64,000 bases of DNA, from NCBI RefSeq assembly GCF_003018255.1, contig NZ_CP027440.1; one strand, given 5' to 3'. This document shows positions 31,061-38,850 of this stretch, piece after piece. The notes beneath the pieces were generated by a model that had not been told where the DNA came from, did no database searches, and was given only the letters and a program-made list of their open reading frames with translations. The position numbers and the translations under genes were made by a program. This DNA comes from Escherichia coli. Its GTDB lineage: Bacteria; Pseudomonadota; Gammaproteobacteria; Enterobacterales; Enterobacteriaceae. How positions within the stretch are numbered: position 1 is the stretch's first letter; every line of letters starts with the position of its first letter.

Positions 31061-32113
31061 TCAGGCGATAGTAATTTTGCTATCGAGATAAACGTCCTGC
31101 ACGGCGTTAATCAGTTTCACGCCGTCAGCCATCGATTTCTTGAACGCCTTACGTCCAAGAATCAGCCCCATTCCGCCTGCGCGTTTGTTGATAACCGCAG
31201 TACGCACTGCATCGCTGAGGTCAGTTTCACCGCCTGCAGCACCGCCGGAGTTTATCAACCCGGCCCGGCCCATATAGCAGTTAGCTAACTGATAACGCAC
31301 CAGGTCAATCGGGTTTTCACTGGTCAGTTTGCTGTAGACTCGATCGTCGGTATAACCGTAGTTAATCGCTTTATAACCGCCGTTATTTTCCGCCATTTTT
31401 TGTTTGACGATATCTGCACCTATGGTCGCCGCCAGATGGTTTGCCTGACCGGTCAGGTCGGCGAAAACATGGTAATCAACGCCATCTTTCTTAAAGGCGG
31501 AGTTACGCAAATAGGCCCACAGCACTGTCACCATGCCCAGCTCGTGCGCACGTTCAAAAGCCGCAGAAATTTCTTCAATCTGGCGACGTGACTCTTCCGA
31601 ACCAAAATAGATAGTCACACCAACCGCCACCGCGCCCATGTTGAAGGCCTGCTCCACGCTGGCATACAGCGTTTGATCGTAGGTATTCGGGTAACTTAGC
31701 GTCTCGTTGTGATTAAGTTTGACGAGGAATGGAATGCGATGCGCGTAACGCCGCGATACCGATGCCAGCACGCCGTAAGTTGACGCCACACAGTTACAGC
31801 CCGCTTCGATCGCCAGTTCAACAATGTTTTTCGGGTCAAAGTAGAGCGGGTTAGCGGCAAATGAAGCTCCGGCAGAGTGCTCAACGCCCTGGTCAACCGG
31901 CAGAATAGAAAGATATCCTGTGCCAGCCAGACGCCCAGTGTTGTACAACGTCTGCATATTACGTAACACCGCTGGCGGGCGATTATTGTCAATCATCACG
32001 CGGTCTACGTAGTCATGTCCGGGGAGATAAAGCTGGTCAGAAGGAATAGTCATACAACGGTGCTGTAAAAGGTTGTCGGCGTCTTTGCCAAGCAACTGCG
32101 CAATATCTGTCAT
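31061..32113 (-). CDS. fbaB: Class I fructose-bisphosphate aldolase FbaB
   Basis: The track ORF extends to 32185. The conserved start is [16 protein letters not shown] at ATG 32113, giving 350 aa. Confidence 0.93.
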
Positions 32114-32369
32114 TACTATGCTCCCGTAAATTCCGATTGGATATCGGCTATGGATTGTCCTGGCCCGCCTTTTGCGGGCAATCATAATCCTGGTCGTTAC
32201 AGGCGAGTTTTTCCATCTTTTGGATGTTTTTTCAGCGTTTTCTGTTGGCTCGATTCATCAGAAAAAATGTTACCGCGGTCAAGTTTTCACCGCAAAGGTA
32301 TTTAAAAGGTATTATTAAATGGTATTGTCATCGCGTACCTTACATTACCTGTCATGAAGGAATTAAAAG

Positions 32370-33647
32370 ATGAAAACAACAGCAAAGCTGTCGTTCATGA
32401 TGTTTGTTGAATGGTTTATCTGGGGCGCGTGGTTTGTGCCATTGTGGTTGTGGTTAAGTAAAAGCGGTTTTAGTGCCGGAGAAATTGGCTGGTCGTATGC
32501 CTGTACCGCCATTGCGGCGATCCTGTCGCCAATTCTGGTTGGCTCCATCACTGACCGCTTTTTCTCGGCGCAGAAAGTGCTGGCGGTATTGATGTTCGCT
32601 GGTGCGGCGCTGATGTATTTCGCTGCGCAACAGACCACTTTTGCCGGGTTCTTCCCGTTACTGCTGGCCTACTCGCTAACCTATATGCCGACCATTGCGC
32701 TGACTAACAGTATCGCTTTTGCCAACGTGCCGGATGTGGAGCGTGATTTCCCACGCATTCGTGTGATGGGCACTATCGGCTGGATTGCCTCCGGTCTGGC
32801 ATGTGGATTTTTGCCGCAAATGCTGGGTTATGCCGATATCTCTCCGACTAACATCCCGCTGCTGATTACCGCCGGAAGTTCTGCTCTGCTCGGTGTGTTT
32901 GCGTTTTTCCTGCCCGACACGCCGCCAAAAAGCACCGGCAAAATGGACATTAAAGTCATGCTCGGCCTGGATGCGCTGATCCTGCTGCGCGATAAAAACT
33001 TCCTCGTCTTTTTCTTCTGTTCATTCCTGTTTGCGATGCCACTGGCGTTCTATTACATCTTTGCCAACGGTTATCTGACAGAAGTCGGCATGAAAAACGC
33101 CACCGGCTGGATGACGCTCGGCCAGTTCTCTGAAATCTTCTTTATGCTGGCATTGCCGTTTTTCACTAAACGCTTTGGTATCAAAAAGGTATTGTTGCTT
33201 GGTCTGGTCACCGCTGCGATCCGCTATGGCTTCTTTATTTACGGTAGTGCGGATGAATATTTCACCTACGCGTTACTGTTCCTCGGCATTTTGCTGCACG
33301 GCGTCAGTTACGATTTTTACTACGTTACCGCTTACATCTATGTCGATAAAAAAGCCCCCGTGCATATGCGTACCGCCGCGCAGGGGCTGATCACGCTCTG
33401 CTGCCAGGGCTTCGGCAGTTTGCTCGGCTATCGTCTTGGCGGTGTGATGATGGAAAAGATGTTCGCTTATCAGGAACCGGTAAACGGACTGACTTTCAAC
33501 TGGTCCGGGATGTGGACTTTCGGCGCGGTGATGATTGCCATTATCGCCGTGCTGTTCATGATTTTTTTCCGCGAATCCGACAACGAAATTACGGCTATCA
33601 AGGTCGATGATCGCGATATTGCGTTGACACAAGGGGAAGTTAAATGA
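32370..33647 (+). CDS. yegT: Nucleoside:H+ symporter-family (NupG/XapB-like) MFS transporter YegT
   Basis: 425-aa 12-TM ORF; first gene of yegTUV. Confidence 0.9.
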   Translation: MKTTAKLSFMMFVEWFIWGAWFVPLWLWLSKSGFSAGEIGWSYACTAIAAILSPILVGSITDRFFSAQKVLAVLMFAGAALMYFAAQQTTFAGFFPLLLAYSLTYMPTIALTNSIAFANVPDVERDFPRIRVMGTIGWIASGLACGFLPQMLGYADISPTNIPLLITAGSSALLGVFAFFLPDTPPKSTGKMDIKVMLGLDALILLRDKNFLVFFFCSFLFAMPLAFYYIFANGYLTEVGMKNATGWMTLGQFSEIFFMLALPFFTKRFGIKKVLLLGLVTAAIRYGFFIYGSADEYFTYALLFLGILLHGVSYDFYYVTAYIYVDKKAPVHMRTAAQGLITLCCQGFGSLLGYRLGGVMMEKMFAYQEPVNGLTFNWSGMWTFGAVMIAIIAVLFMIFFRESDNEITAIKVDDRDIALTQGEVK

Positions 33648-34648
33648 AAACAGAACGTATTCTCGGTGCTCTTTATGGGCAGGCGTTAGGGGATGCGATG
33701 GGGATGCCCTCCGAGCTTTGGCCGCGCAGTCGCGTCAAAGCACACTTTGGCTGGATTGACCGTTTTCTGCCTGGGCCAAAGGAGAATAACGCAGCCTGTT
33801 ATTTTAACCGCGCCGAATTCACCGACGATACCTCGATGGCGCTGTGTCTGGCGGATGCGTTACTGGAACGTGAAGGCAAGATCGATCCGGATCTGATTGG
33901 GCGTAATATTCTCGACTGGGCGCTGCGTTTCGACGCCTTTAACAAAAACGTACTAGGTCCGACCTCGAAGATTGCTCTCAACGCCATTCGCGACGGTAAA
34001 CCCGTTGCTGAACTGGAAAACAACGGCGTGACCAACGGCGCAGCGATGCGCGTCTCGCCATTAGGTTGTTTGCTTCCGGCGCGTGATGTTGATTCCTTTA
34101 TTGATGATGTGGCGCTGGCCTCCAGCCCGACACATAAATCCGATCTGGCGGTTGCGGGGGCGGTAGTCATCGCATGGGCGATTTCTCGTGCCATTGACGG
34201 AGAAAGCTGGTCAGCGATTGTTGATTCACTGCCTTCAATTGCGCGACATGCTCAACAAAAACGCATCACTACCTTCAGCGCCTCACTGGCAGCACGTCTG
34301 GAGATTGCGCTGAAAATTGTGCGCAATGCCGACGGCACCGAATCCGCCAGCGAACAGCTTTACCAGGTCGTTGGCGCAGGTACCAGCACTATTGAGTCCG
34401 TTCCGTGCGCCATTGCGCTGGTTGAACTGGCACAAACCGACCCGAACCGTTGCGCCGTCCTGTGCGCTAACCTTGGCGGCGACACAGACACCATCGGTGC
34501 TATGGCGACGGCAATTTGCGGCGCGTTGCATGGCGTTAATACTATCGATCCTGCGTTAAAGGCGGAACTGGATACAGTAAATCAGCTTGATTTCAACCGC
34601 TATGCCACGGCGCTGGCGAAGTATCGCCAACAACGGGAGGCGATATGA
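33644..34648 (+). CDS. yegU: ADP-ribosylglycohydrolase-family protein YegU
   Basis: 334 aa with the N-terminal GDAMGMP motif and the C-terminal GGDTDTIGAM motif typical of the DraG/ARH fold. ATGA overlap with yegT. Confidence 0.9.
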   Translation: MKTERILGALYGQALGDAMGMPSELWPRSRVKAHFGWIDRFLPGPKENNAACYFNRAEFTDDTSMALCLADALLEREGKIDPDLIGRNILDWALRFDAFNKNVLGPTSKIALNAIRDGKPVAELENNGVTNGAAMRVSPLGCLLPARDVDSFIDDVALASSPTHKSDLAVAGAVVIAWAISRAIDGESWSAIVDSLPSIARHAQQKRITTFSASLAARLEIALKIVRNADGTESASEQLYQVVGAGTSTIESVPCAIALVELAQTDPNRCAVLCANLGGDTDTIGAMATAICGALHGVNTIDPALKAELDTVNQLDFNRYATALAKYRQQREAI

Positions 34649-35610
34649 GCGGCGCTCGATTACACACGCTGCTGCCTGAATTAACCTCGCGTCAGCCAGT
34701 TATGGTGATTGGCGCGGCGGTCATTGATGTGATCGCCGACGCTTATGCCCTCCCCTGGCGTGGGTGCGATATCGAACTGAAACAGCAGAGCGTTAACGTT
34801 GGCGGCTGTGCACTGAATATTGCCGTGGCATTAAAGCGCCTCGGCATCGAAGCGGGTAATGCCTTGCCGCTCGGTCAGGGGGTGTGGGCGGAGATTATTC
34901 GCAACCGGATGGCAAAAGAGGACTTAATCAGCCTGATCGATAACGCCGAAGGTGATAACGGCTGGTGTCTGGCGCTGGTTGAGCCTGATGGCGAACGCAC
35001 TTTTATGTCATTCAGCGGTGTGGAAAATCAGTGGAATCGCCAGTGGCTGGCGCGATTAACCGTTGCGCCTGGCAGCCTGCTCTATTTTTCCGGTTATCAA
35101 CTGGCCTCGCCCTGCGGCGAATTGTTAGTGGAATGGCTGGAAAAGCTGCAAGACGTGACGCCGTTTATCGATTTTGGCCCACGTATTGGCGATATCCCGG
35201 ATGCATTACTGGCGCGGATCATGGCCTGTCGACCTTTAGTGTCACTCAATCGTCAAGAGGCTGAGATTGCCGCCGAACGTTTTGCTTTATCCGCAGAGAT
35301 AACAACACTTGGCAAGCAATGGCAGGAGAAATTTGCCGCGCCGTTGATCGTTCGTCTCGATAAAGAGGGCGCATGGTATTTCAGCAACGACGCTTCTGGC
35401 TGCATTCCGGCATTTCCAACGCAAGTTGTAGACACCATTGGGGCGGGCGACAGTCATGCCGGTGGCGTACTTGCCGGGCTGGCCTCTGGTCTGCCACTGG
35501 CGGATGCCGTATTACTGGGCAATGCAGTGGCGTCGTGGGTTGTCGGGCATCGGGGCGGTGATTGTGCGCCAACGCGCGAGGAACTACTCCTCGCACACAA
35601 AAACGTATAG
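34645..35610 (+). CDS. yegV: PfkB-family sugar/nucleoside kinase YegV
   Basis: 321 aa with the VDTIGAGDSHAGG PfkB signature. ATGA overlap with yegU. Confidence 0.9.
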   Translation: MSGARLHTLLPELTSRQPVMVIGAAVIDVIADAYALPWRGCDIELKQQSVNVGGCALNIAVALKRLGIEAGNALPLGQGVWAEIIRNRMAKEDLISLIDNAEGDNGWCLALVEPDGERTFMSFSGVENQWNRQWLARLTVAPGSLLYFSGYQLASPCGELLVEWLEKLQDVTPFIDFGPRIGDIPDALLARIMACRPLVSLNRQEAEIAAERFALSAEITTLGKQWQEKFAAPLIVRLDKEGAWYFSNDASGCIPAFPTQVVDTIGAGDSHAGGVLAGLASGLPLADAVLLGNAVASWVVGHRGGDCAPTREELLLAHKNV

Positions 35611-36330
35611 ATCGCTGCGACAGTGGCTGATGCTGTACTCAATAGGCCGTTGCTGTTGGTCAAGCGCCACTTGCTTGATCACCAGCACCGGTATTTTGCT
35701 ATCTAACTGAATATGTGACTGAAACTCGGCATCCGGCATCCGGGCGCTAACGCGGGAACGCGTACGTTGTGGGTAAATGTGCTGGCTGCGGAAGTAGTCA
35801 TAAAGAGAAATCCCGATGGCATCAACATCATGAATTAAATGTGCCGGAACCCACGATTCCTCAATCGATACCGCCTCTTCATCGACATAGCGAATACGCT
35901 TAAGCAAAAAGACATCACTTCCCGCTTCGACCGCCAGCTGCTGCGCGACTTCTTCGGGACATTTCACGACACGCTTGTTAACCCATAACGTATCGGGCTT
36001 TTTCCCGCGCAATACCACCTGCTGAGAAAACCCCCGCGCTTCTTTCAGCGAGTATTCGAAGATGTTGTTGATCTGCGTGCCGTAACCACGCGAACGCGTC
36101 ACCACGCCCTCTTCTTCCAGCGACTGCATCGCCTTGCGCACCGTAATGCGCGAAACGCCGGTTAACTGACTTAAATCACGCTCACCGGGCAAAATATTGC
36201 CATGCTCCAGCACCCCGCTGCGCACGGCATTTTTTACCGTTTCGGCAAACTTAATATAAAGCGGCGTGTTATCCGCCGCTAAAATACGCTCGTTCAGTTG
36301 GGCAATCAGCTGGGTATGCGCTTGTTCCAT
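35584..36330 (-). CDS. yegW: GntR/HutC-family transcriptional regulator YegW
   Basis: 248 aa with an N-terminal winged HTH (LPGERDLSQLTGVSRITVRKAM) plus a UTRA-like C-terminus. It is convergent with yegV and overlaps it by 27 nt. Confidence 0.9.
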   Translation of the reverse strand: MEQAHTQLIAQLNERILAADNTPLYIKFAETVKNAVRSGVLEHGNILPGERDLSQLTGVSRITVRKAMQSLEEEGVVTRSRGYGTQINNIFEYSLKEARGFSQQVVLRGKKPDTLWVNKRVVKCPEEVAQQLAVEAGSDVFLLKRIRYVDEEAVSIEESWVPAHLIHDVDAIGISLYDYFRSQHIYPQRTRSRVSARMPDAEFQSHIQLDSKIPVLVIKQVALDQQQRPIEYSISHCRSDLYVFVCEE

Positions 36331-36381: not shown

Positions 36382-37200
36382 TTAAGGCGTTTCTTTAATC
36401 CCATCAACGAATGCCTGCAACTCCTCCACCGTGCCATTAAACACATTAAAATCCACCGGACCATTAATGCCATCGACCTGTCCACGGTCGGAATGCTGCC
36501 AGAAGCGCCAGGCCATGCCGTCATTGTCCGGGCGACGTTGATAATAGTGAGCCACCCACCACGGATATTCATTGAAATAGCCCGCCAGATTGGTGTGATA
36601 AAAAACGGCTCCTGAGTAAATAATTGGCTTTTTACCCGTACGTTTTTCGACCATTTTTAGCCACTGACTTACCCGCTTGCGTAATTCTTTTGCCGATAAT
36701 TTTCCCCGTTCTTCTACGTCCAGCACGGCAGGGAAATCGCCTTGTGAGAAATCCACCGTTTGCAGAAATAATCTCGCCTGAACTGAAGCAGATACCGACG
36801 GGGAAAAATAATGATACGCCCCGCGCAGCAGGCCATTTTCGCGGCTTAGTTGCCAGTTACGCGAAAAATAGGGGTCCACCAGCTTTTCGCCTTCCGTCGC
36901 CTTAATAAAAGCAAACTGTAAGCGGATACCGTTGTCGCGCATTTTTGCCACACGCTGCCAGTCGATCCGCTCCTGCCAGCGTGAAACATCTATTCCGTGA
37001 ATGGTGTAACTGGCAGGAATGCGAATAGCGAAAGATTTAACCGGGCGATAACCGTAGAAGTGGATGTAGTCTTTAATCTGAATTGCTGTCGAATAGAAAA
37101 AATTCACCGTCTGACGCGGATAAATTGCAACGATGGAAATTAGCCCAAGAGCGCATAATAAAACGGTGAATTTTTTTCGACTGGTGATTCTCAACTGCAT
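36382..37200 (-). CDS. yegX: Glycoside hydrolase family 25 (lysozyme-like) protein YegX with an N-terminal membrane anchor
   Basis: The track ORF starts at 37209 (MKPMQL); the E. coli annotation starts at MQLRITS. GH25 hallmarks are present: HGIDVSRWQERIDW and FAFIKATEG. Hydrophobic N-terminus FTVLLCALGLISIVAIY. Confidence 0.87.
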   Translation of the reverse strand: MQLRITSRKKFTVLLCALGLISIVAIYPRQTVNFFYSTAIQIKDYIHFYGYRPVKSFAIRIPASYTIHGIDVSRWQERIDWQRVAKMRDNGIRLQFAFIKATEGEKLVDPYFSRNWQLSRENGLLRGAYHYFSPSVSASVQARLFLQTVDFSQGDFPAVLDVEERGKLSAKELRKRVSQWLKMVEKRTGKKPIIYSGAVFYHTNLAGYFNEYPWWVAHYYQRRPDNDGMAWRFWQHSDRGQVDGINGPVDFNVFNGTVEELQAFVDGIKETP

Positions 37201-37264
37201 TGGTTTCATCCCTGAATGTCAGCACCAAAGGCTGACAATAACCAAAGCAGCTATAGTACGGTGC

Positions 37265-38065
37265 TCACCACCAGGCGTGGAAGTGGTGAACCGGACCAAT
37301 ACCGTGACCAACTTCCAGCGTGTCGGCCTGGGCTAATGCCGATGAAAGCCAGCTTTTTGCCTCCTGTACGGTGTCAGCCCAGTTTGTATGGCGCGGGCGT
37401 AGTGCAGCCAACGCCGCAGAGAGCGTACAACCAGTGCCGTGGGTGTTTTTGGTCATAATGCGCGGTGCAGTAAATCGTTGTTCCCCCTCACGAGTAAACA
37501 GCCAGTCCGGGCTTTGCTCATCATCCAGATGACCACCTTTCATTAGCACTGCGCCACAGCCCATCACCAACAGCGATCGCCCTTGTTCCAGCATTTCCTG
37601 TTCGGTGCGCGCGTGTGGCGCGTCGAGCAAGGCGGCTGCTTCGGGCAAGTTTGGCGTTATTAATGAAACATGTGGCAATAATCGACTGCGCAGCGTAGCA
37701 ACCGCCGAAGGTGAAAGCAGCGGGTCGCCGCTTTTTGCCAGCATAACGGTGTCGAGTACCACGTTTTGGATCTGATAACGTTGCAACCGTTCTGCCACCG
37801 CTTCAACAATATCGGTTTCCGCCAACATACCGATTTTAGTGGTGTCGATTCGCACATCACTGAACACCGAATCGAGCTGGGCGGCGACAAAATCAGGCTC
37901 AATGCGATACACCGACTGTACACCACGGGTATTTTGCGCCACCAGTGCAGTAATAACTGAGCAACCATAAGCGCCAAGTGCCGAGAAGGTTTTAAGATCG
38001 GCCTGAATCCCCGCACCACCACTCGGATCAGTACCGGCAATCGTCAGAGCGTTAATTCGTTTCAT
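37265..38065 (-). CDS. thiD: Hydroxymethylpyrimidine / phosphomethylpyrimidine kinase ThiD
   Basis: 266 aa with [20 protein letters not shown]. Overlaps the thiM stop. Confidence 0.96.
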
Positions 38066-38850
38066 GCCTGCACCTCCTGCGTCAATTGCCAGAGCGCATC
38101 AAGGAAATGTGGAACAAAACTGCCTGGCCCCTCGCTTCTGGCAACTGCGCGTTCTCCGGCTTGTTTCATCCAGTGACAGGCAGATGCGATATTTTCCAGC
38201 GTATCGCCTGGTAGCGCACAACAGGCAGCGACAACCGCCGATAGTGCACAGCCAGTTCCTACCACTTTGGCCATTAGCGGATCGCCACCGTGAATGCCAA
38301 CGGTGCGACGACCATCGGTAACATAATCCACCTCGCCAGTGACCACGACGATTGCGCCAGTTTCCCGTGCCAGTGTTTGTGCAGCGGGTATCGCATTAGC
38401 TGCGGCGTCAGTGGTATCCACTCCCCGTCCACCATTAGCAACGCCAGCTAATGCCATGATTTCCGAAGCATTACCACGTATGGCGGTTGGCTTATGGGAC
38501 AGAAGTTCCACACAAAAACGGCGGCGATAATCGAGCGCACCAACCGCAACCGGATCAAGCGTCCAGGGCGTTTGTGATCGTGTTGCTTGCTCAACGGCAG
38601 CACTCATCGCTTGCGCTCGTGGCTGCGTCAGTGTGCCAACGTTAATCAGCAACGCACTGGCGATAGCCGCAAACTGACTGGCTTCTTCGGTTTCGATAAC
38701 CATCGCTGGCGATGCACCGAGCGCCAGCAAGGTATTGGCAGTAAAGGTTTGCACCACATCGTTGGTCATACAGTGCACAAGAGGGGAATGTTGGTGAAAA
38801 AGGTGTAACGCGTGCGCAGATTGCGCTGAACTCAGCAGGTCGACTTGCAT
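38062..38850 (-). CDS. thiM: Hydroxyethylthiazole kinase ThiM
   Basis: 262-aa ORF preceded by the TPP riboswitch. Confidence 0.96.

What the first reader, a model, noticed from the sequence alone, without database searches (positions are those of the whole stretch)
32370..36330. yegT-yegU-yegV plus convergent yegW: an orphan nucleoside-like catabolic/salvage module
Seen in sequence:
- The three genes are joined by ATGA overlaps: a NupG/XapB-type nucleoside:H+ symporter, an ADP-ribosylglycohydrolase-fold enzyme (GDAMGMP ... GGDTDTIGAM metal-site motifs) and a PfkB kinase (DTIGAGDSHAGG).
- A GntR/HutC regulator converges on the operon and overlaps yegV by 27 nt.

Established: a transporter + glycosidase + PfkB kinase is the logic of the pseudouridine (psuT/psuG/psuK) and similar utilisation loci. 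ARH-fold enzymes cleave ribosyl-X bonds.

Inference: the operon imports and processes an unidentified ribosylated compound. I know of no assigned substrate.
Basis: partly seen in the sequence, partly recalled or inferred. Interest (0 to 1): 0.5.

Follow-up and report, generated by a model that had tools for sequence, protein, structure and literature searches.

The report
Orphan riboside uptake-and-cleavage operon yegTUV/yegW
This is the known E. coli core operon yegTUV with its repressor YegW (GgaR): a transporter, a kinase and a metal-dependent ribosyl-bond hydrolase that almost certainly act together on an unusual riboside whose identity is still unknown.

Summary
The genes are yegT (nucleoside:H+ symporter family), yegU (ADP-ribosylglycohydrolase fold), yegV (PfkB kinase) and convergent yegW (GntR/HutC). 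They have two ATGA overlaps and a 27-nt tail overlap, and sit in 5424 of 5426 complete E. coli genomes.

The locus is not new. YegW was published in 2024 as GgaR, a single-target repressor of yegTUV that ADP-glucose releases in vitro. A 2025 crystal structure of YegT found no significant binding of the four canonical nucleosides. No substrate is assigned to YegT, YegU or YegV in the papers or the June 2026 NCBIfam.

What I add:
- YegU-like and YegV-like proteins are adjacent in 57 of 70 loci across phyla, and are fused in both orders.
- Five transporter families swap around this pair; no other enzyme family recurs.
- YegU keeps the whole two-metal site of ARH3 but not its adenine clamp.
- YegT keeps NupG's ribose contacts with a different, invariant base pocket.
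- YegV lacks ribokinase Lys43.
- A conserved GGTAT repeat operator overlaps the -10 box.

Best reading: import, 5'-phosphorylation, then hydrolysis to ribose-5-phosphate plus aglycone. The aglycone, possibly alpha-linked, is unknown.

The parts
32286..32345 (+). yegT promoter with the predicted GgaR (YegW) operator. It has three direct GGTAT(T) repeats at 32297, 32308 and 32321, then an inverted GTACC. The repeats overlap the promoter-like -35 TTCACC (32286) and -10 TATTAT (32310-32315).
   Evidence: Repeats. Promoter-like site. GGTAT-N6-GGTATT occurs only twice in the 64-kb window against 0.01 expected. The consensus CAAAGGTATTtAAAAGGTATTAT...GGTAt...GTACC is kept upstream of yegT in 19 of 23 loci exactly (one more with one mismatch) across Enterobacterales and a Vibrio, while the spacers drift. 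The site lies inside the fbaB/yegT spacer that bound GgaR in ChIP-chip and gel shift (PMC10819704). That paper gives no motif.
32370..33647 (+). yegT, a nucleoside:H+ symporter (NHS) family MFS transporter and the predicted importer of the riboside.
   Evidence: Pfam PF03825 1.6e-183. TIGR00889 653.9 bits against a cutoff of 446. NupG ribose contacts R136, T140 and E264 are kept as R131, T135 and E255. Base-side residues are replaced by W138, A226, Y229, H310 and Y314. All of these are invariant in 24 YegT sequences (PMC8042404). Crystal structure published; ITC with U, A, C and G gave no significant result (PMC11979927).
33177..33193 (+). Second, weaker predicted GgaR site inside yegT (GGTATCAAAAAGGTATT).
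   Evidence: It is the only other match to GGTAT-N6-GGTATT in the window. It falls inside the paper's probe 5 (nt 571-869 of the ORF = window 32940-33238), which bound GgaR only at the higher protein dose. It lies in coding sequence (FGIKKVL) and is kept in only some orthologues.
33644..34648 (+). yegU, an ARH-fold (ADP-ribosylglycohydrolase family) two-metal hydrolase. Predicted to cleave the ribosyl-aglycone bond.
   Evidence: Pfam PF03747 6.7e-66. AlphaFold2 model with pLDDT 97.4. Best solved-structure matches are MJ1187 (1t5j), the Thermus ARH-related protein, ARH3 and DraG. The metal ligands and H164 (ARH3 H182) are conserved in the 34-sequence alignment A1; the ARH3 adenine clamp F143/Y149 aligns to N126/V129.
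34645..35610 (+). yegV, a PfkB (ribokinase-superfamily) kinase. Predicted riboside 5'-kinase.
   Evidence: Pfam PF00294 1.6e-55. It is below every NCBIfam equivalog cutoff; for ribokinase it scores 81.5 against 299.65 bits. Furanose-diol and catalytic residues D28, G53-G54, N58 and D269 are kept in all 59-60 aligned YegV-like sequences. Ribokinase K43 is Cys in 51 of 60, N14 is hydrophobic and E143 is variable. Pseudouridine kinase PsuK also lacks K43 and E143.
35584..36330 (-). yegW (= ggaR), a GntR/HutC-type repressor of yegTUV with a winged helix plus a UTRA effector domain.
   Evidence: Pfam GntR 2.5e-16 plus UTRA 2.3e-36. Published as a single-target repressor: about 30-fold derepression in the deletion strain, and ADP-glucose at 10-100 uM releases it from DNA in gel shifts (PMC10819704).
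35584..35610 (.). 27-nt tail-to-tail overlap of yegV and yegW, so the convergent transcripts must overlap.
   Evidence: The same 27-nt overlap occurs in 14 of 21 enterobacterial loci. yegV-yegW is listed among RNA-seq-supported overlapping pairs in E. coli (PMC12288877). No terminator-like site lies between the genes.

Best explanation
yegTUV is a tightly repressed uptake-and-cleavage operon for a non-canonical riboside.

1. YegT imports the riboside with a proton (inferred).
2. YegV phosphorylates its 5'-hydroxyl (inferred).
3. YegU, a two-metal ARH-fold hydrolase, cleaves the bond between C1 of the 5-phosphoribosyl group and the aglycone. This gives ribose-5-phosphate for central metabolism plus a free aglycone that needs no dedicated follow-up enzyme (inferred).
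4. YegW/GgaR represses the operon (shown in the literature). I predict it binds GGTAT repeats that cover the -10 box (predicted here, consistent with the published binding fragments). It leaves the DNA when an inducer binds its UTRA domain. ADP-glucose does this in vitro. The physiological inducer may be a phosphorylated pathway intermediate (inferred).

The logic is that of the pseudouridine psuT/psuK/psuG system, with a different glycosidase fold and different transporters. The aglycone is not identified.
For: - Functional coupling of YegU and YegV. They are adjacent in 57 of 70 loci across several phyla. They are fused as ARH-PfkB and as PfkB-ARH.
- Import of a small heteroaromatic riboside or vitamin-like compound. 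Five transporter families replace each other next to the pair: NHS (23 loci), NCS1 (17), PnuC-like (11; passes the TIGR01528 cutoff), ECF (8-12) and a binding-protein ABC system.
- A self-contained module. No other enzyme family recurs; 203 Pfam families were found among 150 flanking proteins, none in more than 5.
- Ribose recognition in YegT. NupG's ribose contacts are invariant and the base pocket is replaced by another invariant set (PMC8042404). ITC with canonical nucleosides gave no significant result (PMC11979927).
- Hydrolase competence of YegU. All ARH3 metal ligands and H182 are conserved, and the fold is confirmed at pLDDT 97.4.
- Kinase first. Every characterised ARH substrate carries a phosphate on the 5'' position of the ribose that is cleaved (PMC7050489). 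YegU keeps the ADP-ribose-binding His but lacks ARH3's adenine clamp. YegV keeps the furanose-diol and catalytic residues but lacks ribokinase K43, as PsuK does.
- Regulation. Published ChIP-chip, gel shift, Northern and qPCR data agree with the conserved GGTAT operator over the -10 box and with the second site inside yegT.
Against: - No enzyme assay exists for YegU or YegV, and no transport assay for YegT.
- The order of the two enzymatic steps rests on analogy and a few residues. E143 of ribokinase is kept in 17 of 60 YegV-like proteins.
- Adenosine binding differs greatly between ARH classes, so loss of the ARH3 clamp does not exclude an ADP-ribosyl substrate.
- The only experimental leads point elsewhere. 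ADP-glucose releases GgaR at 10-100 uM. A ggaR deletion raises glycogen and slows growth on glucose. A yegV deletion was glycogen-deficient on ADP-glucose medium. A simple riboside-catabolism model does not explain these results.
- Context hints to the aglycone are single and contradictory. A DeoD-type phosphorylase lies in L005. An isochorismatase-family gene lies in L093 and is not specifically PncA. A CobC-like phosphatase lies in L090 and scores below its cutoff.
Confidence: 0.55

Rival explanations
1. Hydrolase first. YegU cleaves the imported riboside to free ribose plus aglycone, and YegV is a dedicated ribokinase paralogue that captures the ribose.
For: The closest solved and curated relatives of YegV are ribokinases (1e-15; TIGR02152 is the best NCBIfam hit). 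Fusion and adjacency fit either order. 17 of 60 YegV-like proteins keep a Glu at the ribokinase E143 position.
Against: YegV scores 81.5 bits against the 299.65-bit ribokinase cutoff. Ribokinase K43 is Cys in 51 of 60 and N14 is hydrophobic. Known ARH enzymes act on ribose that is already 5''-phosphorylated (PMC7050489). E. coli already has RbsK.
Confidence: 0.2
2. ADP-glucose and glycogen function, as proposed in the literature. yegTUV imports, makes or modifies ADP-glucose or a related ADP-sugar and so feeds glycogen synthesis. GgaR senses ADP-glucose.
For: ADP-glucose, but not ADP or glucose, releases GgaR from its operator at 10-100 uM. A ggaR deletion gives 2-3 times more glycogen. yegTUV mRNA rises about 3-fold at high glucose (PMC10819704). 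A yegV deletion was glycogen-deficient on ADP-glucose plates (PMC6195507).
Against: ADP-glucose has no ribosyl-X bond of the kind ARH enzymes cleave. None of the three protein families is known to make or carry nucleotide sugars. ADP-ribose and other analogues were not tested as effectors. The same enzyme pair sits with PnuC-like, NCS1, ECF and ABC importers in bacteria from several phyla, which points to a small scavenged compound. The glycogen effect could be indirect, for example through the adenylate or pentose-phosphate pools when the operon is overexpressed (my inference).
Confidence: 0.1
3. YegU is a true de-ADP-ribosylating enzyme, like DraG, Tri1 or ARH3. It reverses ADP-ribosylation of a protein or nucleic acid, and the transporter and kinase are unrelated neighbours.
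For: Family membership and the intact two-metal site. The best NCBIfam hits are DraG and Tri1, but far below their cutoffs (80 against 337 bits; 68.8 against 490 bits).
Against: No ADP-ribosyltransferase gene recurs in the neighbourhood. Fusion to a PfkB kinase and constant linkage to importers do not fit a protein-repair role. ARH3's adenine-stacking residues are not kept.
Confidence: 0.05
4. The three genes have unrelated substrates and are merely co-transcribed.
For: No biochemical data link them.
Against: Translational coupling through ATGA overlaps. A single 3.3-kb transcript. Conserved adjacency across phyla and gene fusions in both orders.
Confidence: 0.03

Closest known systems
Pseudouridine utilisation genes psuT-psuG-psuK (yeiM-yeiN-yeiC) of E. 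coli
   Same: A nucleoside importer, a PfkB nucleoside kinase and a glycosidase that acts on the 5'-phosphate to give ribose-5-phosphate plus base. The genes are adjacent. PsuK, like YegV, lacks ribokinase K43 and E143.
   Different: The glycosidase PsuG belongs to a different fold family from the ARH fold of YegU. The transporter belongs to another family (from established knowledge, not tested here). The bond cleaved is a C-glycoside. No GntR/HutC repressor is encoded beside it in the fetched stretch.
Salmonella STM4065-4066-4067 operon (permease, aminoimidazole riboside kinase, putative ADP-ribosylglycohydrolase)
   Same: The same three-part composition. STM4066 phosphorylates a riboside (AIRs), and the STM4067 mutant is attenuated in the pig gut (PMC3161100). 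That a GntR repressor (STM4068) controls it is from my memory and was not verified.
   Different: It is not orthologous. The STM4066 structure 1tyy matches YegV only at E = 1.3e-4, whereas ribokinases match at 1e-15. Salmonella also carries its own yegU at 84% identity (P0107). The natural substrate of the STM operon is likewise unknown.
ARH3 / ARH1 / DraG / Tri1 (characterised ARH-family ADP-ribosylhydrolases)
   Same: The fold, the two-metal centre and the ADP-ribose-binding His. In the characterised members the metal geometry explains selectivity for alpha-1'' linkages and the need for the cis 2'',3''-diol (PMC7050489).
   Different: Sequence identity is 20-26%. ARH3's adenine clamp is not kept. 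The genomic context is import plus kinase, not an ADP-ribosyltransferase partner.
MJ1187 of Methanocaldococcus jannaschii (PDB 1t5j)
   Same: The closest solved structure to YegU (phmmer 1.3e-29; Foldseek TM 0.81/0.90).
   Different: Its function is also unknown, so it gives no substrate.
NupG and XapB nucleoside:H+ symporters
   Same: The same family, the same fold, the same TM10 GxxxD protonation site (G311...D315) and the same ribose-contact residues.
   Different: About 27% identity. The base-contact residues are replaced. ITC with uridine, adenosine, cytidine or guanosine gave no significant result.

Membership tests
NHS (nucleoside:H+ symporter) family, for YegT | Matches the family profiles above the curated cutoffs | tested here: met
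   PF03825 610.7 bits against 25.9. TIGR00889 653.9 bits against 446.1.
NHS (nucleoside:H+ symporter) family, for YegT | Ribose-contact residues (NupG R136, T140, E264) and the TM10 GxxxD protonation site | tested here: met
   R131, T135, E255 and G311...D315 are invariant in 24 YegT sequences. Their roles are taken from PMC8042404 and PMC11979927.
NHS (nucleoside:H+ symporter) family, for YegT | Binds or transports canonical nucleosides | not testable with these tools
   Published ITC with U, A, C and G gave no significant result (PMC11979927). The base-side residues differ from NupG.
ARH / ADP-ribosylglycohydrolase family (PF03747), for YegU | Family profile match and the all-alpha ARH fold | tested here: met
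   PF03747 223.3 bits against 26.2. AF2 model with pLDDT 97.4. Foldseek probability 1.00 to MJ1187, ARH3 and DraG.
ARH / ADP-ribosylglycohydrolase family (PF03747), for YegU | Two-metal centre ligands (ARH3 E41, T76-D77-D78, D314, D316, T317) | tested here: met
   E24, T60-D61-D62, D280, D282 and T283 by HMMER alignment. D61 and D282 are invariant; T60, D62, D280 and T283 are kept in at least 90% of 34 homologues. E24 is kept only in the closer relatives.
ARH / ADP-ribosylglycohydrolase family (PF03747), for YegU | Adenosine-binding residues of a characterised class (ARH3 F143/Y149) | tested here: not met
   They align to N126 and V129, and those columns hold no conserved aromatic residue. Adenosine binding differs between ARH classes, so this is weak evidence.
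ARH / ADP-ribosylglycohydrolase family (PF03747), for YegU | Hydrolyses an ADP-ribosyl conjugate | not testable with these tools
   No assay is published. The DraG and Tri1 equivalog models score far below their cutoffs (80 against 337; 68.8 against 490).
Ribokinase (RbsK equivalog), for YegV | Reaches the curated ribokinase score and keeps the ribose-contact residues N14, K43 and E143 | tested here: not met
   TIGR02152 81.5 bits against 299.65. N14 is V, K43 is C and E143 is A in YegV. K43 is Cys in 51 of 60 relatives. That these residues contact ribose is from my memory of the RbsK structure.
PfkB kinase superfamily, for YegV | Profile match, GG dipeptide, diol-binding Asp and Asn, and the catalytic Asp of the DTxGAGD motif | tested here: met
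   PF00294 189 bits. D28, G53-G54, N58 and D269 are kept in all 59-60 aligned relatives.
GntR family, HutC subfamily, for YegW | N-terminal GntR winged helix plus C-terminal UTRA effector domain | tested here: met
   PF00392 59.5 bits and PF07702 125.1 bits. It is below the cutoff of every named equivalog; for PhnF it scores 127.7 against 156.8.
psuKGT-type pseudouridine system | Glycosidase of the PsuG family acting on a C-glycoside 5'-phosphate | tested here: not met
   YegU matched only the ARH profile PF03747 in the Pfam scan and no other family. It is therefore not a member, although the proposed logic is the same.
Salmonella STM4065-4067 module | Orthology of the kinase to STM4066 (AIRs kinase, PDB 1tyy) | tested here: not met
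   1tyy matches YegV at only E = 1.3e-4 and 24.4 bits, behind more than 45 other PfkB structures.

The most novel reading that the evidence does not exclude
YegU keeps the metal geometry that makes ARH1 and ARH3 selective for alpha-1'' linkages. On this reading, yegTUV and its relatives in gut Bacillota are a dedicated route for alpha-linked ribosides, which ordinary nucleoside hydrolases and phosphorylases presumably cannot cleave. Candidates are the lower-ligand alpha-ribosides released from cobamides (alpha-ribazole, alpha-adenosine-type ribosides) and 2'-O-alpha-ribosyl-adenosine from poly(ADP-ribose) breakdown. YegV would make the alpha-riboside 5'-phosphate and YegU would hydrolyse it to ribose-5-phosphate plus base. 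This would be the first small-molecule catabolic role for the ARH fold. A second, less likely novel reading is that YegU is the NMN or pyridine-riboside-phosphate glycohydrolase of E. coli, whose gene a 2005 paper listed as not yet identified (PMC1249556).
Probability: 0.2. Interest if true: 0.7.

Novelty: already known. Interest (0 to 1): 0.4.

Why it matters
yegTUV is in essentially every E. coli genome, and relatives of the enzyme pair occur in Lachnospiraceae, lactobacilli, Paenibacillus, Vibrio, Aeromonas and others. Even so, neither enzyme has a substrate. The analogous Salmonella operon matters for persistence in the pig gut.

Finding the compound would assign function to a widespread orphan module. 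It would show what the ARH fold does outside ADP-ribosylation signalling. It might also explain the puzzling link between GgaR, ADP-glucose and glycogen.

The comparative results narrow the experiment to a short list: a riboside, 5'-phosphorylated first, with a free 2',3'-diol, possibly alpha-linked, and an aromatic or heteroaromatic aglycone that needs no dedicated downstream enzyme.

Tried and rejected
- Single-sequence AlphaFold2 of YegU gave an unusable model (pLDDT 43.9). The alignment-based model replaced it.
- The first protein search returned only near-identical Enterobacteriaceae among its best 120 hits. The representative-library search was needed to reach distant relatives.
- An Rfam scan of eight non-enterobacterial loci for a riboswitch that might name the ligand found only a tRNA.
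- Literature searches for an ARH enzyme characterised with a PfkB kinase or a riboside found nothing relevant.
- I suspected that the AIR-synthase-related protein in the ECF-type loci is the alpha-ribazole kinase CblS. NCBIfam gave no such match, and 120 homologues are named only 'AIR synthase related protein'. The Listeria paper was not held. The link is unverified and not used.
- A Pfam census of 150 flanking proteins, looking for a recurrent aglycone-processing enzyme, found none.
- The isochorismatase gene fused into the L093 operon is not specifically a nicotinamidase: it scores 25.6 bits against a 174-bit cutoff.
- The CobC-like phosphatase beside L090 is below its cutoff (114.6 against 162.9 bits) and is a single case.
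- The afdb50 fold library was not available.
- fbaB, yegX and thiDM were rejected as parts of the system. fbaB is not regulated by GgaR. yegX is missing between yegW and thiD in other genera. The thiD adjacency is confined to Enterobacteriaceae.

Full report
**Observation**

The window is E. coli chromosome. The 5.5-kb stretch around the finding matches 5424 of 5426 complete E. coli genomes at 95-99.9% identity, and RefSeq names the genes yegT, yegU, yegV, yegW and yegX.

Both + strand junctions are ATGA stop/start overlaps, and yegV and yegW overlap tail to tail by 27 nt.

Pfam assigns the following:
- Nuc_H_symport, 1.6e-183;
- ADP_ribosyl_GH, 6.7e-66;
- PfkB, 1.6e-55;
- GntR plus UTRA.

The quoted sequence motifs are present. 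The neighbours are fbaB (divergent), yegX (a GH25 enzyme) and thiD-thiM.

**What is already published**

YegW was characterised in 2024 and renamed GgaR (PMC10819704).
- ChIP-chip found one peak in the whole genome, at the fbaB/yegT spacer, with a weaker shoulder inside yegT.
- Gel shifts confirmed a strong site within 190 bp upstream of yegT and a weak site in nt 571-869 of the yegT ORF.
- yegTUV is one 3.3-kb mRNA. It is undetectable in the wild type and about 30-fold derepressed in the deletion strain. fbaB is unaffected.
- ADP-glucose at 10-100 uM, but not ADP or glucose, released GgaR from DNA.
- The deletion strain stores 2-3 times more glycogen and grows more slowly on glucose minimal medium.
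- The authors state that none of the three operon genes has a clear function.

An earlier screen listed a yegV deletion among the glycogen-deficient mutants on ADP-glucose plates (PMC6195507).

YegT has a 3.1-A crystal structure (PMC11979927). Its fold and TM10 protonation site match NupG. Several uridine-contact residues are not conserved, and ITC with uridine, adenosine, cytidine and guanosine gave no significant result.

The June 2026 NCBIfam library has no equivalog model that YegU or YegV reaches. Literature searches found no characterised ARH-plus-PfkB system.

The locus and its orphan status are therefore known. The substrate is not.

**YegU and YegV work together**

A search of 1.84 billion representative proteins found 6829 YegU relatives, 232 of them at E <= 1e-30. 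Several of the best hits are 600-760 residues long. Pfam shows these are fusions of an ARH domain with a PfkB domain in both orders: ARH-PfkB in P0199, P0222, P0229 and P0255, and PfkB-ARH in P0191, P0202, P0204 and P0215.

I fetched 80 genome loci that encode YegU relatives of 34-87% identity. They come from Enterobacterales, Vibrio, Aeromonas, Chromobacterium, Paenibacillus, Bacillaceae, Lachnospiraceae, Lactobacillaceae, Melioribacter, Streptomyces and others. In 70 of them my ORF caller recovered the ARH gene. A YegV-like PfkB gene lies within five genes of it in 57, and a GntR/HutC gene in 55.

The enzymes do not have unrelated substrates.

**The transporter is interchangeable; nothing else is conserved**

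Five transporter families appear next to the pair:
- the NHS transporter YegT, in 23 loci (Enterobacterales, a Vibrio, some other Gammaproteobacteria);
- an NCS1 permease (PF02133), in 17 loci, inserted between the ARH and PfkB genes in Morganella, Providencia, Aeromonas, Photobacterium, Paenibacillus, Virgibacillus and lactobacilli;
- a PnuC-like protein (PF04973), in 11 loci, mostly Lachnospiraceae; it scores 147.9 bits against the 42.45-bit cutoff of the nicotinamide riboside transporter model TIGR01528;
- a dedicated ECF transporter, in 8-12 loci;
- a binding-protein-dependent ABC system, in one fusion locus.

A Pfam census of 150 proteins flanking the core blocks found 203 families, none in more than five loci. 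An Rfam scan of eight loci found no riboswitch.

The module is therefore self-contained: importer, kinase, hydrolase, repressor. The importer families are those that carry nucleosides, nucleobases and vitamin-like heterocycles.

**YegT recognises a ribose with a different partner**

The NupG study assigns R136, T140 and E264 to the ribose and Q225, N228, Q261 and Y318 to the base. It notes that the ribose triad is identical in YegT (PMC8042404).

I aligned NupG with YegT and 23 orthologues of more than 55% identity.
- R131, T135, E255 and Q252 are invariant.
- The base-side and stacking positions are replaced by another invariant set: W138, A226, Y229, H310 and Y314.

This is a conserved, more aromatic pocket. 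It fits a riboside with a non-canonical, probably aromatic or cationic aglycone. That last step is inference.

**YegU is a competent ARH-fold hydrolase**

The single-sequence model was poor. With a 34-sequence alignment the model reached pLDDT 97.4. Its best solved matches are MJ1187 (function unknown), a Thermus ARH-related protein, ARH3 and DraG (sequence-level matches).

Through the HMMER alignment to human ARH3, the residues map as follows:
- metal ligands E41, T76-D77-D78, D314, D316 and T317 correspond to YegU E24, T60-D61-D62, D280, D282 and T283;
- D61 and D282 are invariant, and the others are kept in at least 90% of the alignment; E24 is kept only in the closer relatives;
- H182, reported as essential for ADP-ribose binding (PMC11667697), corresponds to the invariant H164;
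- the adenine-stacking pair F143/Y149 (PMC7050489) aligns to N126/V129, with no conserved aromatic residue.

The review also states that substrate positioning needs both metals and the cis 2'',3''-diol, and that this arrangement explains the selectivity of ARH1 and ARH3 for alpha-1'' linkages.

**YegV looks like a riboside kinase rather than a ribokinase**

Its best solved and curated relatives are ribokinases, but far below the curated cutoff: 81.5 against 299.65 bits.

I aligned 60 YegV-like proteins with E. coli RbsK and PsuK.
- The diol-binding Asp and Asn, the GG dipeptide and the catalytic Asp are kept in all 59-60 aligned proteins (D28, G53-G54, N58, D269).
- RbsK K43 is Cys in 51 of 60.
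- N14 is hydrophobic.
- E143 varies.
- The pseudouridine kinase PsuK also lacks K43 and E143.

That N14, K43 and E143 contact ribose in RbsK is from my memory of that structure. I give this argument modest weight.

**Most likely mechanism**

1. YegT imports a riboside.
2. YegV phosphorylates its 5'-OH.
3. YegU hydrolyses the C1-aglycone bond of the 5'-phosphate to ribose-5-phosphate plus aglycone.

Kinase-first is favoured for three reasons. Every characterised ARH substrate carries a 5''-phosphate on the ribose that is cleaved. YegU keeps the ADP-ribose-binding His while lacking ARH3's adenine clamp. YegV lacks ribokinase hallmarks. This is the logic of psuT/psuK/psuG with another glycosidase fold.

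All three steps are inferred; none is shown. Hydrolase-first remains a serious rival.

The aglycone cannot be named from the present data. Isolated context hints point in different directions:
- a DeoD-type phosphorylase in L005;
- an isochorismatase-family gene translationally coupled to an ARH-PfkB fusion in L093, not specifically a nicotinamidase;
- a CobC-like phosphatase next to L090, below its cutoff.

**Regulation**

The yegT upstream region carries three direct GGTAT(T) repeats at 32297, 32308 and 32321, followed by an inverted GTACC. The first two repeats lie between and over a promoter-like -35 TTCACC and -10 TATTAT.

The pattern GGTAT-N6-GGTATT occurs exactly twice in the 64-kb window, against 0.01 expected. 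One match is in the promoter. The other is at 33177-33193 inside yegT, which falls within the published weak-binding probe (window 32940-33238). The paper reports no motif.

Upstream of yegT the GGTAT-N6-GGTAT pair is kept exactly in 19 of 23 loci (one more has a single mismatch) from Kluyvera to Rahnella and a Vibrio. The spacers drift, giving the consensus CAAAGGTATTtAAAAGGTATTAT...GGTAt...GTACC.

I therefore predict that this is the GgaR operator and that repression works by occluding the -10 box.

The 27-nt yegV/yegW overlap is conserved in 14 of 21 enterobacterial loci. The pair is listed among RNA-seq-supported overlapping transcripts. A derepressed operon may therefore also interfere with yegW expression; this is speculation.

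**How the glycogen data fit**

They are not explained by the riboside model. ADP-glucose was compared only with ADP and glucose, so it may mimic a phosphorylated ribosyl intermediate or ADP-ribose.

The glycogen excess and slow growth of the deletion strain could be indirect effects of 30-fold overexpression of a kinase and a phosphoribosyl hydrolase on the adenylate or pentose-phosphate pools. AMP is described as the main inhibitor of ADP-glucose pyrophosphorylase. This is inference and is testable with double mutants.

**Comparison and novelty**

The closest characterised logic is psuTGK. The closest composition is the Salmonella STM4065-4067 operon, whose kinase phosphorylates aminoimidazole riboside and whose ARH gene is needed for gut persistence in pigs (PMC3161100). 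Its kinase is not orthologous to YegV: 1tyy matches at only E = 1.3e-4.

YegU is a member of the ARH family by profile, fold and metal site, but it is not shown to be an ADP-ribosylhydrolase. YegV is a PfkB kinase but fails the ribokinase test. YegT is an NHS member, with no published evidence of binding canonical nucleosides.

The locus, its repressor and its orphan status are already in the literature, so the finding itself is not new. New here are:
- the fusion evidence and the transporter-swap evidence;
- the residue-level arguments for a 5'-phosphoriboside substrate;
- the operator prediction.

The most novel reading not excluded is that the module degrades alpha-linked ribosides. That would be a new role for the ARH fold.

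Noticed in passing
window 36382-37209 (yegX) and 37265-38850 (thiD, thiM): In E. coli a GH25 glycoside hydrolase gene (yegX) sits between yegW and thiD. In Kluyvera, Raoultella, Enterobacter, Buttiauxella and others yegW abuts thiD directly. yegX therefore looks like an insertion and not part of the module. The adjacency to thiamine salvage genes is confined to Enterobacteriaceae.
   Followed up: partly
L059 4638-5420, L075 4577-5404; also L067, L072, L076, L083: In Bacillota and Melioribacter loci with an ECF transporter, a 260-292 aa 'AIR synthase related' protein (PF00586 N-domain only) sits between the ECF S and A components, upstream of the ARH gene. In some of these loci no PfkB gene is present. 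It may be an alternative ATP-dependent kinase. A link to the alpha-ribazole kinase CblS could not be verified.
   Followed up: partly
L094 354-8500: A metagenomic locus encodes GntR, an ARH-PfkB fusion, a binding-protein ABC importer and a second stand-alone ARH paralogue. This is a fifth transporter type, and a hint that two ARH enzymes may act on related substrates.
   Followed up: no
P0163 (692 aa): This YegU relative has two tandem ARH domains and no kinase domain.
   Followed up: no
L027, L030, L031, L033 (Symbiopectobacterium, Brenneria): Here yegU and yegW are kept at about 65% and 52% identity, but yegT and yegV are not adjacent. A roughly 320-aa gene follows instead. D-2-hydroxyacid dehydrogenase domains were the most frequent family among all the flanking proteins, but I did not check which loci they come from. 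This could be a decaying or rewired version of the module.
   Followed up: no
L090 2181-2711 and 9589-12875: Next to a GntR-ECF-(PfkB-ARH fusion) operon lies a histidine-phosphatase gene whose best match is alpha-ribazole phosphatase CobC (114.6 bits, below the 162.9 cutoff). Downstream are an alkaline-phosphatase-superfamily gene, a second NCS1 permease and DeoC.
   Followed up: partly
window 31061-32185 (fbaB): The mechanical ORF for fbaB starts 24 codons upstream of the MTDIAQLL... sequence, and so runs into the shared fbaB/yegT control region. The real start is probably the internal Met. This matters only for where the divergent promoters lie.
   Followed up: no
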